From: Actinomycetota bacterium
GTDB taxonomy: Bacteria > Actinomycetota > Thermoleophilia > RBG-16-64-13
Direction: 5' to 3'
DNA: 64,000 bases
NCBI GenBank assembly: GCA_016278725.1
Contig: JADQBG010000010.1
Coordinates: 35,984 to 99,983, forward strand
In this document: positions 1 through 5,278 of the stretch, in pieces
Position numbering within the stretch: position 1 is the stretch's first letter
How the letters are laid out: each line of letters begins with the position of its first letter
Position numbers and translations under genes: made by a program
The notes under the pieces: generated by a model
Told to the model about the DNA's origin: nothing
Seen by the model: only the letters and a program-made list of their open reading frames with translations
Database searches by the model: none

Positions 1-442
1 GCGCCGCGTCTTCGCCTACTGCCGCCCTTTGGAGGATGAGAACCTCTGCGGGCTGCGGAACCTCTGCGGTCTCGAGTTTCTTCAGCGGCAGGGGTTCACT
101 GTGGTTTCCGGAAACGGCCAGGTCTTCCTGGTCAAAGCGGAACTCGTGGGCCTCATCCCCGCGCTCAAAGAACTGCGCAGCCTGCTCCCGGAGCCCCGCC
201 CCTGGACCGCTCCCAGCCCCGCCATGTGGAGCAGCACCCGAGACTGATTCCGTACGTTCGATTCTGAGACCGTGGCCACCAAAGCCCAGGGCAGGATTCG
301 TCGCGCAACGGACGAATAAAATCCATTCAACGGGCAAGCGGAACCGGGCGGAAACATCTTCAGACCGAGCGCTAAGAACAGAATACTCGGAGCCGGGAGT
401 AGGAAGCGGGCCCTCCTACCGCTTCTGACCGCGGTCTGGTTC

Positions 443-1723
443 TTGCTGTTGGTCCTTCCTGCGTTCGCCGCGCCCCCGCCGAACTCCCAAGACCAGGAAC
501 TGGCCGGGTTGCGGGACCGACTGGAGAGCCAACGCTCCCAGGCAGAGAGCCTGAGGAGCGAGATCGAAACGCTCGACCGCGAGATCGCAATACTGGTCGA
601 GGATTACGACCAGGCTCGCTACTTCCTGGAAAGGGCGCAGGCGGACGAAGGCCGTGCCAAGGAGCGGGTCAACGCGGCGAGTGAGGCTCTGGAAGCTGTG
701 GAGGACCAGCTGATGCAGCGCCTGCCCGCCGTCTACAAGCACGGCAGCCTCCAACCGCTCGAGCTGCTGATGGGGAGTTCCACTCTGCGGCAACTGGTCG
801 ATCGGGTCCGCTACCTGGGCAACGTGCTCCAGGGCGATCGCCACCGTCTGAGCGAGGCCCGGCGCCTGCGTCAGGCTTTGGAGCGGGAACTCGCGGAACT
901 GGCGCGGGAGCGGGAACGTCGGGCCGCCATCGCCGTAGAGCTAGAGAAAAGCCGGAAGGCAGTAGAAGCCAAGTTGGCCGAGCGGGCCGGACTGTTGGCG
1001 TCGGTGGAAAGCGACATCGTCCGGCTGGTGGAAGAGGAGCGAGCGCGGGAGGAGGAACTCGCCCGCAAGGCCGCCGAGGAAGCCGCCAAACGCGCCGCCG
1101 AAGAACAGGCTCGGCTCGCAGCCGAGGAGAAGGCTCGGCGTGCGGCCGAAGAGGAGTCGCAAAGGCAAACCGAGGCAGCAAGAGGAGGGTCCCCCAAATC
1201 GTCCGGATCATCCGGATCGTCCCGATCACCGGGATCGTCCGGCCATCCCGAAGCCGTGGGCACCCCCGCCCCTAGTCCAAACGAGGGCTCGGCCCCCGCG
1301 ACCGGGGGCAAGAATGCGGCACCCAAGGAGAGCCCCGAAGAGAAGCCGGCCTCACCCCCTTCGCCGCCCGCGGCGTCCAGCCGCGGGGGCCGCATCGTCG
1401 AGGCCGCCAATCAGTACCTGGGAGTGCCCTACGTATGGGCGGGGGCGTCGCCCTCGGGTTTTGATTGCTCCGGACTCACTCAGTATGTTCTGGCCAAGGT
1501 GGGCGTCGACGTCCCCCACTCCTCGCGGCTTCAATACATGCTGGGCGCTCCCGTTTCGCGCGGGAACCTGAGCCCCGGCGACCTGGTCTTCTTCGGCGAT
1601 CCGGTGCATCATGTGGGCATCTTTGCGGGCGGGGGACAGTTCATCCATGCCCCCTACACCGGTGAGGTGGTGCGTTACTCGCCCTTCACCCGTTCTGACT
1701 TCGTCGGGGCCCGCCGGTTCTAG
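443..1723 (+). CDS. RipA-like secreted peptidoglycan endopeptidase: long coiled-coil N-region plus C-terminal NlpC/P60 domain
   Basis: C-terminal NlpC/P60 catalytic block (VWAGASPSGFDCSGL ... HHVGIF ... IHAP). The N-terminal ~300 aa are Ala/Glu/Arg-rich heptad-like coiled coil. The Ser/Gly/Pro linker is encoded by a short tandem DNA repeat (1195-1240). The start codon is uncertain (see finding). Confidence 0.8.
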   Translation: MLLVLPAFAAPPPNSQDQELAGLRDRLESQRSQAESLRSEIETLDREIAILVEDYDQARYFLERAQADEGRAKERVNAASEALEAVEDQLMQRLPAVYKHGSLQPLELLMGSSTLRQLVDRVRYLGNVLQGDRHRLSEARRLRQALERELAELARERERRAAIAVELEKSRKAVEAKLAERAGLLASVESDIVRLVEEERAREEELARKAAEEAAKRAAEEQARLAAEEKARRAAEEESQRQTEAARGGSPKSSGSSGSSRSPGSSGHPEAVGTPAPSPNEGSAPATGGKNAAPKESPEEKPASPPSPPAASSRGGRIVEAANQYLGVPYVWAGASPSGFDCSGLTQYVLAKVGVDVPHSSRLQYMLGAPVSRGNLSPGDLVFFGDPVHHVGIFAGGGQFIHAPYTGEVVRYSPFTRSDFVGARRF

Positions 1724-1763
1724 GATCCATTGGCGACCACGCCCGTAAGCTTAGGCGGAACCA

Positions 1764-3176
1764 ATGCCACACAAAGCGCCCTCGGGACCGCGGCCTTCAT
1801 TCCGGCGCTTCCGGAGAATGGCGCTGTTTGCCGGCCTGATCCTGGCACTGGCTGCGCTCGCCCTGGGAGTCTCCGGCATCCCCTCCCCTGACGCGCTGGC
1901 CCAGCCCCAAGGCGCGGTCTGGGTGACCGAGGCCGAGGGCATCGTCGATCCCCCGCTTGCCGACTATCTCGAGAAGGTGATCGGACGCGCCGAGGATGCT
2001 CGAGCCGAGGCCCTCGTCATCTTGATGGATACACCCGGTGGCCTGGATACGTCCATGCGGCAGATAATCCAGGCCGAGCTCGACGCCAAAATTCCCGTGG
2101 TCGTCTACGTGTATCCGAACGGAGCCCGCGCGGCGTCGGCCGGAGTTTACATAATGATGGGCGCCGACGTCACGGCGATGGCCCCCCAGACGAACCTGGG
2201 CGCCGCCACCCCGATCTCGCTGAGCGGCGACATGGGCGAGACATTGACTCGCAAGGTGATCAACGATTCGGTCGCCTACATCCGCGCACTGGCCAACGAG
2301 CACGACCGGAACGCCGAATGGGCGGAACAGGCGGTGCGCAACGCCGAATCCCTGCCGGCCGCCGAGGCCGAGGACATCGGCGTCATCGAATTCGTGGCCG
2401 ACGACCTGGATACGCTTCTGCAAGAGCTCGACGGTTTCGAAACCGTTCCCAAGGGCCTCACGCTGCAGACCGCGAACGCGCCCATCCACCGGGTGCAGAT
2501 GAACTGGGCGGAGCGGTTTCTCCACCTCGTGGTGAACCCCGATTTCGCTTTTGTCTTCCTGATCGTCGGGGTTCTCGGCATCGTGCTCGAGCTGCAGTCT
2601 CCAGGCATCGGCGTCGGGGGGATCGGCGGCGGGATCTCGCTCCTCCTGGGGCTTTACGCATTGTCGGTGCTGCCGGTGAACCTGGTGGGCGTGGTCCTGC
2701 TGATTTTGGCAGCCGGGTTCTTCATGGCCGAGATCTTCGTGGTCTCGGGCGGTATTCTGGCCGTTGGGGGAGTAGCCGCCATGATCTTGGGCGGGGTGCT
2801 CCTTTTCGACGCCCCGGAAGGCATTCTGAGGGTAGACTGGTCGGTGATCATTCTGACGTCACTGGCCACGCTGGCCTTCTTCGCGTTCGTGATCCGCGCC
2901 GTGGCCCGGGCGCGGCGGCAGGCGTCGAGCGGGGGTCTGGAGGCCATGGTCGGTGCTCAGGGCCGCGTGCGCCAGGCCATCGACCCGGTGGGGCAGGTCA
3001 TGGTGCACGGCGAATTGTGGCGGGCGCAGGCGGACAGGACGATCGGCGAGGGCTCAGCGGTCACCGTCACCGCCGTCCAAGGCCTCACGCTAATCGTCGA
3101 GCCGACGGCGGATGAAGACGAAAGCCCGGCAGCCGGGCAAGAGAACGCCCAACAGTGGGCGGACAAGGAGGAGTAA
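1764..3176 (+). CDS. NfeD-family membrane-bound ClpP-class serine protease
   Basis: N-terminal signal/TM, a ClpP-like block ([41 protein letters not shown]), then multiple TM helices and a C-terminal OB-like domain. Lies immediately upstream of, and overlapping, an SPFH gene, the canonical NfeD-stomatin arrangement. The start could alternatively be at MALFAG (~1818). Confidence 0.8.
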
Positions 3177-4048
3177 TGGAACTGCTGACCACGGGTGCGG
3201 TGATCGTCGCCCTGGCGATCCTGCTGCTCTCCGCGTCGATGCGGATCGTTACGGAGTACCAGCGGGGCGTCATCTTCCGGCTGGGCAGGATCATCGGAGC
3301 CAAGGGGCCAGGCATGTTCTTCCTGATCCCCATCGTCGACCGCATGATCAAGGTGGACCTGCGAACCATCACCATGGACGTCCCCCCGCAGGAAGCCATC
3401 ACCATGGACAACGTGCCCATCCGGGTAAACGCCGTGGTTTACTTCCGCGTGGTCGACCCCAACAACTCCGTGGTCGAGGTGGAGAACTTCATGCTGGCCA
3501 CTTCGCAGATCGCCCAGACCACGCTGCGCAGCGTGCTCGGCCAGAGCGATTTGGATCATCTGCTCACCGCCAGGGAACAGATCAACGCCCGCCTCCAGGA
3601 GATCATCGACGAGCAGACCGATCCCTGGGGAGTCAAGGTCTCCATGGTCGAAATCAAGGACGTGGAGATTCCTCAAGGCATGCAGCGGGCCATGGCCCGG
3701 CAGGCGGAGGCCGAACGGGAGCGGCGCGCCAAGGTCATCGCCGCCGAGGGCGAGTTCCAGGCATCGGAGAAGCTGGCCCAGGCGGCAGTGGTGCTCGACC
3801 GCACCCCCACGGCCATCCAGCTCCGCTATCTGCAAACTCTGATCGAGGTCGCTTCCGAGAAGAACTCGACCACGATCTTTCCGATCCCCATCGATCTGCT
3901 GACCCCCTTCCTGAAGAGGGACGGAAACGACCTCCAGAGCCCATCGGCGCCCGCGCCCGCTCCGGCGCCGGAGCCCACGTCCGCAAGCGTGGCCGCAGCC
4001 GCGCCGGAACAAGCGCCCGCGCCGGAGTCGATGGAGGAAGAGGCCTAG
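3176..4048 (+). CDS. SPFH/band-7 (stomatin-like) protein
   Basis: ATG at 3176 overlaps the NfeD stop (TAATG), with an AAGGAGGAG SD upstream. N-terminal TM, then SPFH core ([17 protein letters not shown] ... [15 protein letters not shown] ... coiled-coil [20 protein letters not shown]). Confidence 0.85.
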
Positions 4049-5205: not shown

Positions 5206-5278
5206 GGGGGTATAGCTCAGTTGGGAGAGCGTCGCGTTCGCATCGCGAAGGTCAGGGGTTCGAATCCCCTTACCTCCA
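5206..5278 (+). tRNA. tRNA-Ala (anticodon CGC)
   Basis: Cloverleaf folded by hand: acceptor GGGGGUA/UACCUCC with the G3:U70 Ala identity pair, D-arm GCUCAGUUGGGAGAGC, anticodon stem UCGCG/CGCGA with loop UUCGCAU (anticodon CGC), T-arm AGGGG-UUCGAAU-CCCCU, discriminator A. The 3' CC is encoded (5279-5280). Confidence 0.95.

What the first reader, a model, noticed from the sequence alone, without database searches (positions are those of the whole stretch)
240..460. RipA-like hydrolase has a signal-peptide-like N-terminus with no canonical start codon, in a structured leader
In the frame of the 443 ORF, the 41 codons upstream (open back to a TAA at 317-319) encode ...RKRALLPLLTAVWFLLLVLPAFA|APPP, a textbook n-region/h-region/AxA signal peptide. 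That stretch contains no ATG, GTG or TTG; only ATC (356), ATA (383) and CTG (425) are available. The called TTG at 443 would leave only MLLVLPAFAA, too short for a Sec signal. Either a non-canonical initiation codon (AUC/AUA/CUG) is used, or there is an indel upstream. The same ~200-nt leader has alternative-pairing elements (GUAGGA / GGAAGCGG-GCCCUCCUA-CCGCUUC, ACGGGCAAGCGGAACCGGGCGG). NlpC/P60 and Rpf genes of Actinobacteria are classic targets of the c-di-AMP (ydaO/kimA) riboswitch, so a riboswitch, possibly one controlling non-canonical initiation, is plausible.
Basis: partly seen in the sequence, partly recalled or inferred. Interest (0 to 1): 0.5.

Follow-up and report, generated by a model that had tools for sequence, protein, structure and literature searches.

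The report
Cell-wall hydrolase with non-standard start codon
A secreted cell-wall-cutting enzyme in an uncultured actinobacterial lineage really does lack a normal start codon before its export signal and most likely starts at a conserved AUC; no riboswitch is present, and gene callers truncate the protein and drop its signal peptide.

Summary
The hydrolase frame is open from TAA 317-319. Codons 320-442 encode a textbook n/h/AxA signal peptide and contain no ATG, GTG or TTG.

It is not a sequencing error. Four independent assemblies are identical here. Two of three diverged sister lineages (83-87% aa identity) also lack a canonical start. The third has a TTG at window position 386 with no Shine-Dalgarno (SD) sequence.

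ATC 356 is invariant in all four lineages. It is the first near-cognate codon after the stop. It follows an invariant GG.GG with a variable purine spacer; the neighbouring NfeD gene uses the same GGCGGAA before its ATG. Starting there gives a 19-residue basic n-region. Best reading: weak AUC initiation of a RipC/CwlO-type NlpC/P60 endopeptidase.

The riboswitch idea fails:
- Rfam gives no hit at E<=10.
- The fold z-score is -0.27.
- There is no covariation, and the proposed alternative helix breaks in orthologues.

Only a small hairpin (296-317) and an adjacent TAAAAT are constrained. The only canonical start in the leader, GTG 272, opens an in-frame 15-codon uORF closed by the invariant TAA, so restart after termination stays possible.

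Known kind of exception, new instance. Modest interest, mainly as a systematic annotation error.

The parts
2..247 (+). 3' end of the conserved upstream gene (203-aa protein, no Pfam or NCBIfam family), stop TGA 245-247
   Evidence: ORF list. The full gene is seen in L004 at 2128-2739. It is 94-96% identical in the sister lineages and 49-57% in distant syntenic loci. No family hit.
272..319 (+). Candidate 15-codon uORF, GTG...TAA (MATKAQGRIRRATDE*), in the same frame as the hydrolase. GTG 272 is the only canonical start codon in any frame of 248-442.
   Evidence: Read. GTG and TAA are invariant in the four lineages. Variable sites by codon position are 3/2/5, which does not decide whether it is coding. 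The SD-like GAGG/GGAGG sits only 1-2 nt upstream. Translation is not shown.
296..317 (+). Perfect 7-bp inverted repeat or hairpin, ATTCGTC-N8-GACGAAT. The arms are invariant and the loop varies.
   Evidence: 7 of 7 pairs never vary. A local fold of a 44-nt segment spanning it gives -11.7 kcal/mol, z = -2.1. It is unique in the window. Equivalent hairpins with other sequences and loop lengths occur in distant orthologue leaders.
317..322 (+). TAAAAT: the stop codon of the uORF frame plus a -10-like AT-rich hexamer, invariant
   Evidence: Invariant columns. Block 280-339 has only 17% variable sites against about 35% at third codon positions. The sigma-70 consensus scan found no full promoter, so a promoter role is inference only.
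347..351 (+). Shine-Dalgarno-like GGCGG (GGTGG in the sister lineages), 4 nt before ATC 356
   Evidence: G347, G348, G350 and G351 are invariant within an otherwise variable segment. Anti-SD duplex energy is -5.8 to -9.3 kcal/mol in all four lineages. The NfeD gene uses the same GGCGGAA before its ATG.
356..358 (+). ATC, proposed initiation codon
   Evidence: Invariant in all four lineages and nine assemblies. It is the first near-cognate codon after TAA 317, and in L003 the only ATN/NTG near-cognate codon upstream of the basic residues. No experimental evidence.
356..469 (+). Signal peptide (38 aa): basic n-region, h-region LLPLLTAVWFLLLVLP, AFA|A cleavage motif
   Evidence: AxA|APPP is conserved in all lineages. 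Segment 443-508 varies 3/3/9 by codon position. L002 carries an in-frame 36-nt insertion in the n-region.
356..1723 (+). Proposed full CDS of the coiled-coil plus NlpC/P60 endopeptidase (455 aa, stop TAG 1721-1723)
   Evidence: Pfam PF00877 E = 6.5e-25 and a PcsB coiled coil. RipC of M. tuberculosis, 8idc, E = 2e-21. Third-position-biased substitution, 73/64/153.
1421..1690 (+). NlpC/P60 catalytic domain
   Evidence: Residues 368-457 of the 467-aa query. The DCSG and HHVG motifs are visible.
443..445 (+). TTG, first canonical in-frame codon; not the real start
   Evidence: It is TCG in L002 and L003. It would leave MLLVLPAFA only. Anti-SD energy is -3.4.
509..511 (+). TTG used by public gene calls (P0001, P0003, P0004), which removes the signal peptide
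   Evidence: It is TTA in L001.

Best explanation
The gene encodes an exported RipC/CwlO-type peptidoglycan endopeptidase: a signal peptide, a coiled coil and an NlpC/P60 domain. In this small clade it has no ATG, GTG or TTG start. Translation most likely begins at the conserved AUC at 356, decoded by initiator tRNA, with ribosomes positioned by the weak SD-like GGNGG at 347-351. That gives a 38-residue signal peptide with a 19-residue basic n-region.

Near-cognate AUC initiates at roughly 1-2% of AUG in E. coli. It is also the class of codon that IF3 discriminates against. The expected result is low, possibly IF3-sensitive, synthesis of a potentially lytic enzyme.

The leader holds no riboswitch, only one small conserved stem-loop (296-317) and an AT-rich hexamer.

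**Shown:**
- No canonical start is present.
- This is not an assembly error.
- The signal-peptide coding region is under purifying selection.
- The ATC and the GG.GG are conserved.
- No known RNA family matches and there is no covariation.

**Inferred:**
- AUC 356 is the codon actually used.
- Expression from it is low.
- IF3 has any role.
For: **The sequence is real and lacks a start**
- Frame and missing starts.
- The DNA is identical in four independent assemblies from different samples.
- L002 and L003 also lack canonical starts. All lineages keep ATC 356, TAA 317 and the open frame.

**The signal peptide is translated**
- Segment 443-508 varies 3/3/9 by codon position, and AxA|APPP is conserved.
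- L002 has an in-frame 36-nt insertion with no stop codon in the n-region.
- All distant homologues carry N-terminal signal or TM segments.
- The rest of the gene is under purifying selection.

**ATC 356 is the best-placed codon**
- ATC 356 has the best anti-SD complementarity of all candidate codons in every lineage: -5.8 to -9.3 kcal/mol against -2.2 to -5.4 for ATA 383, CTG 425 and TTG 443. TTG 509 reaches -6.6 in L002.
- That range matches neighbouring real starts, and NfeD uses the same GGCGGAA.
- The G's of GG.GG are invariant while the spacer and flanks vary.
- The TTG that L001 gained at 386 has no SD (-2.2).
- The n-region length from ATC (19 aa) matches the distant orthologue L173 (20 aa).

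**Near-cognate starts can work**
- AUA, AUC, AUU and CUG initiate at about 1-2% (0.02-3%) of AUG in E. coli (bioRxiv 10.1101/063800).
- AUC, AUU and AUA are listed as rare bacterial starts (PMC9094748).

**No riboswitch:**
Against: - There are no expression or N-terminal data.
- The SD-like match is weak. Energies of -5.8 or better, with spacer 2-10, occur at 14% of random positions in this window.
- In L002 and L003 the strongest pairing sits only 0-1 nt from ATC.
- Segment 356-442 shows no third-position bias (9/12/9). The substitution pattern therefore does not prove translation from 356 rather than from a later codon.
- Only four closely related lineages are available, so invariance of three bases is modest evidence.
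- CTG 425 is also invariant.
- ATA or ATC at 383 is present in three of four lineages.
- L001 may use its TTG.
Confidence: 0.58

Rival explanations
1. Translation starts at a different near-cognate codon downstream: AUA 383 (AUC in L002) or CUG 425. The codon may differ between lineages. L001 would use its UUG at 386.
For: - ATA or ATC at 383 occurs in three of four lineages. CTG 425 is invariant.
- Gene callers accept TTG 386 in L001 and give a protein with a complete signal peptide (P0002).
- The n-region 380-419 evolves fast (58% variable sites), which tolerates a movable start.
Against: - Position 383 is AGA in L003.
- There is no SD-like sequence before 383 or 386 (-2.2 kcal/mol). Before 425 it lies 13-14 nt away.
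- A start at 425 would delete the conserved basic residues (RKR, KKW, RRW) and leave a 15-residue signal with no charged n-region.
Confidence: 0.15
2. Expression depends on the in-frame uORF (GTG 272 to TAA 317). In one version, ribosomes that terminate at TAA restart at AUC 356, 36 nt downstream; this is a mechanism for the best explanation, not a replacement. In the other version, TAA is read through and gives a long N-terminal tail. The uORF could be the remnant of an ancestral N-terminus cut by a fixed nonsense mutation.
For: - GTG 272 is the only canonical start in the leader, and it is in frame with the hydrolase.
- Both it and the TAA are invariant, with no indels between 272 and 356 in four lineages.
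- An SD-like GAGG/GGAGG lies upstream.
- In distant orthologues the hydrolase ORF begins 41-72 nt after the upstream gene. In L172 and L178 an in-frame GTGA/ATGA overlap start exists. A start near 272, which is 24 nt after the stop, therefore fits the ancestral layout.
- Long n-regions of 30-60 aa are common in the family.
Against: - The SD-like element is only 1-2 nt from GTG 272, and it is weak in the window itself (-2.7).
- uORF substitutions of 3/2/5 by codon position do not show coding.
- In L173 and L176 the homologous block GGGCAGGATTC...GACGAA is untranslated leader, and L176 has no uORF start.
- BLASTP finds no N-terminal similarity to the extended L172 peptide.
- TAA is a normal stop in this genome, used by 6 of 28 large ORFs including NfeD.
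- From my own knowledge, UAA is the least leaky stop codon.
Confidence: 0.12
3. The signal peptide is no longer made. The protein starts at TTG 443 or 509 as annotated. The gene is then decaying, cytoplasmic, or exported by another route.
For: Public annotations call TTG 509. TTG 509 has a weak SD-like match of -4.5 to -6.6.
Against: - TTG 443 is TCG in L002 and L003, and TTG 509 is TTA in L001.
- Segment 443-508 shows coding-type conservation (3/3/9), and AxA|APPP is kept in all lineages.
- The catalytic domain is under strong purifying selection.
- A peptidoglycan endopeptidase has no cytoplasmic substrate (own knowledge).
- All homologues are predicted to be exported.
Confidence: 0.06
4. 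The leader is a riboswitch (c-di-AMP/ydaO or an unknown class) that gates initiation.
For: Block 280-339 is more conserved than neutral sites. One small hairpin is conserved, and related hairpins occur in distant leaders.
Against: - Rfam gives no hit at E<=10 or at gathering threshold.
- The 213-nt leader folds like shuffles, z = -0.27.
- The alifold covariation term is positive.
- The proposed alternative helices lie inside the coding region. One breaks in orthologues and the other shows no double changes.
- Distant orthologues have leaders of only 41-58 nt, too short for a ydaO-type aptamer.
Confidence: 0.03
5. A sequencing or assembly error removed a canonical start.
For: None beyond the anomaly itself.
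Against: The sequence is identical in L004-L007 from four separate samples. The same state is seen in the diverged L002 and L003.
Confidence: 0.01

Closest known systems
Bacterial genes with near-cognate AUN start codons: E. coli infC and pcnB (AUU), and ATC starts found by N-terminal proteomics in Deinococcus deserti. These examples are from my own knowledge. The general statement is in PMC9094748 and bioRxiv 10.1101/063800.
   Same: A conserved ORF has no AUG, GUG or UUG start. A near-cognate AUN codon sits behind an SD-like sequence. Low initiation efficiency is expected (about 1-2% of AUG), and IF3 discrimination is a possible control point.
   Different: - No experimental N-terminus exists here.
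- The codon is AUC, not AUU.
- The product is an exported peptidoglycan hydrolase.
- The state is confined to a few closely related uncultured lineages, while distant orthologues use ATG or GTG.
- No autoregulatory logic like that of infC is evident.
RipC (Rv2190c), CwlO and PcsB: coiled-coil plus NlpC/P60 (or CHAP) hydrolases activated by FtsEX
   Same: The architecture is signal peptide, long coiled coil, low-complexity linker and a C-terminal NlpC/P60 domain. Best matches are RipC structure 8idc (E = 2e-21), NCBIfam RipC (101.9 bits) and the PcsB coiled-coil Pfam (22.8 bits, below its gathering cut-off of 27).
   Different: Scores are far below the curated family cut-offs (425 for RipC, 625 for RipA). 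No FtsEX link was examined. The gene sits in a conserved Asp23 / 203-aa protein / hydrolase / NfeD / Band7 cluster.
ydaO-yuaA (c-di-AMP) riboswitch, Rfam RF00379
   Same: Only the genomic setting: the leader of an actinobacterial cell-wall hydrolase gene.
   Different: There is no covariance-model match at any threshold, no excess folding energy and no covariation.
Translational restarts after nonsense codons (lacI and T4 rIIB restarts) and uORF-coupled reinitiation. From my own knowledge.
   Same: An in-frame stop (TAA 317) follows the only canonical start (GTG 272). A downstream SD-like sequence plus a near-cognate codon lies 36 nt away.
   Different: Nothing shows that the uORF is translated. 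In L173 and L176 the homologous block is untranslated leader.

Membership tests
ydaO-yuaA c-di-AMP riboswitch (RF00379) or any Rfam family | Covariance-model match to the family | tested here: not met
   cmscan of 1-700 at E<=10 gives 0 hits. The whole window at gathering threshold gives only one tRNA, at 5206-5278.
ydaO-yuaA c-di-AMP riboswitch (RF00379) or any structured cis-regulatory RNA | Structure more stable than chance and supported by compensatory changes | tested here: not met
z = -0.27. Covariation term +1.62, with no meaningful double changes.
Gene with a non-canonical (near-cognate) initiation codon | Coding sequence under selection extends upstream of the first ATG/GTG/TTG, with no canonical start back to the in-frame stop | tested here: met
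   443-508 varies 3/3/9, AxA is conserved, and L002 has an in-frame 36-nt insertion.
Gene with a non-canonical (near-cognate) initiation codon | Not an assembly artefact, and shared by related genomes | tested here: met
   Four identical independent assemblies. L002 and L003 lack canonical starts as well.
Gene with a non-canonical (near-cognate) initiation codon | A conserved near-cognate codon preceded by a ribosome-binding site | tested here: inconclusive
   ATC 356 and GG.GG are invariant, and ATC has the best anti-SD energy of the candidates. The match is weak, and such energies occur at 14% of random positions.
Gene with a non-canonical (near-cognate) initiation codon | Experimentally mapped initiation site or N-terminus | not testable with these tools
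   Needs initiation-site Ribo-seq, toeprinting or reporter mutagenesis.
Sec-type cleavable signal peptide | Basic n-region, 10-16-residue hydrophobic h-region, small residues at -3 and -1 | tested here: met
   FRPSAKNRILGAGSRKRA / LLPLLTAVWFLLLVLP / AFA|APPP, read and kept in all lineages. No SignalP-type predictor was available.
NlpC/P60 (C40) peptidase | Pfam PF00877 above the gathering score, with the catalytic Cys and His motifs | tested here: met
   87.6 bits against a cut-off of 23. DCSG and HHVG are present and invariant across homologues.
RipA (NF033741) / RipC (NF038345) | NCBIfam score above the curated cut-off | tested here: not met
   RipA 73.8 against 625. RipC 101.9 against 425. 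The architecture resembles RipC/CwlO, but the protein is not a member by these models.

The most novel reading that the evidence does not exclude
In this clade the autolysin gene has been rewired. The ancestral start, coupled to the upstream gene, survives as a 15-codon uORF closed by a fixed TAA that sits at the foot of a conserved hairpin. Hydrolase synthesis then depends on post-termination ribosomes restarting at an AUC. Output would be throttled jointly by upstream translation, hairpin unfolding and IF3 fidelity. This would be a natural, selected 'nonsense-restart' switch on a lethal enzyme.
Probability: 0.08. Interest if true: 0.55.

Novelty: new member of a known kind. Interest (0 to 1): 0.3.

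Why it matters
**Practical.** Standard gene callers accept only ATG, GTG and TTG. In three of the four lineages (P0001, P0003, P0004) they truncate this hydrolase at an internal TTG and drop its signal peptide. An exported cell-wall enzyme is therefore filed as a shorter protein with no export signal. The same error is probably hidden in other GC-rich metagenome-assembled genomes.

**Biological.** A conserved AUC start on a potentially lytic enzyme would be a simple way to keep its synthesis very low, and perhaps to tie it to IF3 or ribosome status. It would add a natural example to the short list of near-cognate starts in Actinomycetota.

It does not reveal a new RNA regulator.

Tried and rejected
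1. **Rfam.** Permissive search of 1-700 and gathering search of the whole window found no leader RNA.
2. **Single-sequence and alignment folding of the leader.** No excess stability and no covariation.
3. **Sequencing-error hypothesis.** Rejected by identical independent assemblies.
4. **More orthologues.**
No new member of the close clade appeared.
   - A motif search for GSAGGATTC over the loci found only tRNA T-arm look-alikes.
   - The clade therefore stays at four lineages.
5. **Operator test.** The palindrome ATTCGTC-N8-GACGAAT has no other copies above chance in the window. Spacer lengths of 8, 7 and 4 in relatives argue against a fixed-spacing DNA operator.
6. **Sigma-70 promoter scan.** No consensus promoter. 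The TAAAAT -10 idea remains inference.
7. **Ancestral N-terminus idea.** BLASTP of the conceptual peptide from GTG 272 against the extended L172 N-terminus aligned only the coiled coil.
8. **Window-wide screen for other genes with long open stretches before the first canonical start.** Uninformative in a 66% GC genome.
9. **TAA recoding.** Rejected; TAA ends 6 of 28 large ORFs.
10. **L012.** It shows GTT where L175 has GTG. It is a long-read MAG with evident frameshifts, so it was not used.
11. **Literature.** One search was too broad and gave nothing useful.
Full report
**1. What is in the sequence**

The window is 66% G+C. A same-strand gene ends at TGA 245-247. The next 41 codons (320-442) read NPFNGQAEPGGNIFRPSAKNRILGAGSRKRALLPLLTAVWF and then continue LLLVLPAFA|APPPNSQ.
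- None of the 41 codons is ATG, GTG or TTG.
- Across all three frames of 248-442 the only canonical start is GTG 272. It is in the same frame but is closed by TAA 317 after 15 codons.

The product carries a C-terminal NlpC/P60 domain (PF00877, E = 6.5e-25) and a PcsB-type coiled coil. Its best characterised relatives are M. tuberculosis RipC (8idc, E = 2e-21) and the NCBIfam RipC model. All scores fall far below the curated family cut-offs. 'RipC/CwlO-like' is therefore a better label than 'RipA-like'.

**2. Not an artefact**

The exact protein called from TTG 509 (P0001) occurs on eight contigs. Four loci from four different samples (L004-L007) are base-for-base identical to the window over 200-540.

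Three diverged sister lineages exist: P0002/L001 with L170 and L171, P0003/L002, and P0004/L003. They are 83-87% identical in the hydrolase and 94-96% in the upstream gene.
- L002 and L003 also have no canonical start between the TAA and the signal peptide. Gene callers truncate them at the same internal TTG.
- L001 has TTG where the window has CTC 386, and it is called with the full signal peptide.
- TTG 443 is TCG in L002 and L003. TTG 509 is TTA in L001. Neither can be the common start.

**3. The signal peptide is translated**
- Third codon positions of the flanking genes vary at 31-38% of sites among the four lineages. I use this as a rough neutral yardstick.
- Segment 443-508 varies 3/3/9 by codon position, and the AxA|APPP site is kept in every lineage.
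- L002 carries a 36-nt in-frame, stop-free insertion in the n-region.
- The mature part is under clear purifying selection (73/64/153).
- Every distant homologue has an N-terminal signal or TM segment.
- TAA is an ordinary stop here, ending 6 of 28 large ORFs.

Translation must therefore begin between 320 and about 404 at a codon other than ATG, GTG or TTG.

**4. Which codon**

ATC 356 is invariant, as part of an invariant ATCTTCA. It is the first near-cognate codon after the stop. In L003 it is the only ATN/NTG near-cognate upstream of the basic residues, because 383 is AGA there.

Segment 340-359 is otherwise as variable as neutral sites (45%). Within it, G347, G348, G350 and G351 are invariant while the 4-nt purine-rich spacer changes. 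That pattern looks like a ribosome-binding site.

| Candidate codon | Anti-SD duplex energy (kcal/mol) |
|---|---|
| ATC 356 | -5.8 to -9.3 in all four lineages |
| ATA 383 / position 386 | -2.2 to -3.5 (-2.2 before L001's TTG) |
| CTG 425 | -2.9 to -5.4, sited 13-14 nt away |
| TTG 443 | -3.4 |

Called starts of the eight neighbouring genes range from -2.4 to -11.4. NfeD uses the same GGCGGAA motif before its ATG.

The caveat is that such energies occur at 14% of random positions, so this is supportive, not decisive. Substitutions in 356-442 (9/12/9) also do not show a coding pattern by themselves.

A start at 356 gives a 19-residue, +6 n-region. That is similar in length to the 20-residue n-region of the distant orthologue L173.

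In E. coli, AUC, AUA, AUU and CUG initiate at about 1-2% (0.02-3%) of AUG (bioRxiv 10.1101/063800). AUC, AUU and AUA are recognised rare bacterial starts (PMC9094748). Low output fits a potentially lytic enzyme. IF3 sensitivity is an inference from general knowledge.

**5. The leader**

No Rfam family matches at E<=10. The 213-nt leader folds like its shuffles, z = -0.27. RNAalifold gives a positive covariation term.

- GTAGGA/TCCTAC is paired in only 71% of cells and breaks in orthologues.
- GAAGCGG/CCGCTTC is kept through wobble pairs but has no double changes.

What is constrained is block 280-339, with 17% variable sites. It contains the perfect hairpin or palindrome ATTCGTC-N8-GACGAAT (296-317; local z = -2.1) and the invariant TAAAAT (317-322).

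Distant syntenic orthologues (42-49% identical overall in alignment A2) have leaders of only 41-72 nt and canonical starts: ATG in L172, L178, L173 and L176; GTG in L175; TTG or GTG in L168.

Their leaders share the flanks AGGA...CGAA and carry a hairpin at the same place with other sequences: UCGAC-N7-GUCGA in L172 and L178, and UCGC-N4-GCGA in L175 and L012. The equivalent pair is U-A, A-U or C-G depending on the group (read; folds). The arm spacing varies, which favours an RNA stem-loop over a fixed-spacing operator.

Its role is unknown. It could be an intercistronic stabiliser or processing site, or it could modulate the RBS. Compared with the relatives, the window clade has about 40 extra nt between this hairpin and the start, including TAAAAT. 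That hexamer could be a new -10 element, but the consensus scan finds no full promoter.

**6. The uORF**

GTG 272 to TAA 317 (MATKAQGRIRRATDE*) is conserved and in frame. It lies where relatives begin their hydrolase ORF. L172 and L178 even have in-frame GTGA/ATGA overlap starts. It might be a remnant of the ancestral N-terminus, and it might feed restarting ribosomes to AUC 356.

Several points count against it:
- Its SD-like element is only 1-2 nt from the GTG.
- Its substitutions (3/2/5) are uninformative.
- The homologous block is non-coding in L173 and L176.
- BLASTP finds no N-terminal similarity.

I keep it as a minority mechanism.

**7. Verdict**

The sequencing-error and riboswitch halves are rejected.

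This is a new instance of a known exception, limited to a few closely related uncultured Actinomycetota lineages. The taxon is inferred only from the names of the best hits. Its main consequence is a systematic mis-annotation that removes the export signal.

Noticed in passing
window 296-317; L172 2473-2489; L178 1474-1490; L175 about 1474-1485: A small stem-loop sits at the same place in the hydrolase leader across distant syntenic orthologues. It has conserved flanks (AGGA...CGAA) but different stem sequences and loop lengths. One position reads U-A, A-U or C-G in three groups, which looks like covariation. It was counted by eye only, because MAFFT could not align the arms.
   Followed up: partly
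window 317-322: An invariant all-A/T hexamer, TAAAAT, lies in a 66% GC intergenic region directly after the hairpin. It is absent from the shorter leaders of distant orthologues. It may be a -10 element of a clade-specific promoter. There is no matching -35.
   Followed up: partly
L172 2456-2503 and L178 1456-1503: In two distant orthologues a GTGA/ATGA start overlaps the stop of the upstream gene. It is in frame with the annotated ATG, with no intervening stop, which suggests a translationally coupled start 15 codons earlier (MT[LR]VGDR...).
   Followed up: partly
L168 1466-1522: The orthologue P0005 is called from GTG 1520, which leaves a signal peptide with no n-region. In-frame TTG 1466 and GTG 1472 upstream would add a basic n-region. 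A 6-codon uORF (AGGAG-N5-GTG 1449) ends in a TGA that overlaps TTG 1466.
   Followed up: partly
L002 about 2853-2888 (between window positions 395 and 396): A 36-nt in-frame insertion in the n-region looks like a local duplication. It gives three in-frame ATCTTC motifs in that lineage.
   Followed up: no
L012 2740-3000: A long-read MAG orthologue has GTT where its relative L175 has the GTG start. It also has frameshifts between the n-region, signal peptide and coiled coil, and again in the catalytic domain. These are probably assembly errors, so it was not used as evidence.
   Followed up: partly
window 1-4048 and L002-L006, L172-L178: A conserved gene cluster: MFS transporter, YtxH-like, metallophosphoesterase, Asp23, a 203-aa protein with no family (it holds the PCPDCLWWQ motif), the NlpC/P60 hydrolase, NfeD, Band7/stomatin, HypC-like. 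The 203-aa protein always sits directly upstream of the hydrolase. It is much more conserved than the hydrolase (94-96% against 83-87%).
   Followed up: no
window 1101-1380: The Ser/Pro/Gly-rich linker between the coiled coil and the NlpC/P60 domain evolves faster than third codon positions (47% variable sites, spread over all codon positions) and differs in length between lineages.
   Followed up: no
window 403-425: The hairpin GAAGCGG-N9-CCGCTTC inside the n/h-region codons is kept in all four lineages through G-U wobble pairs (93% paired), without double changes. It lies 47 nt downstream of ATC 356, and its significance is unknown.
   Followed up: partly
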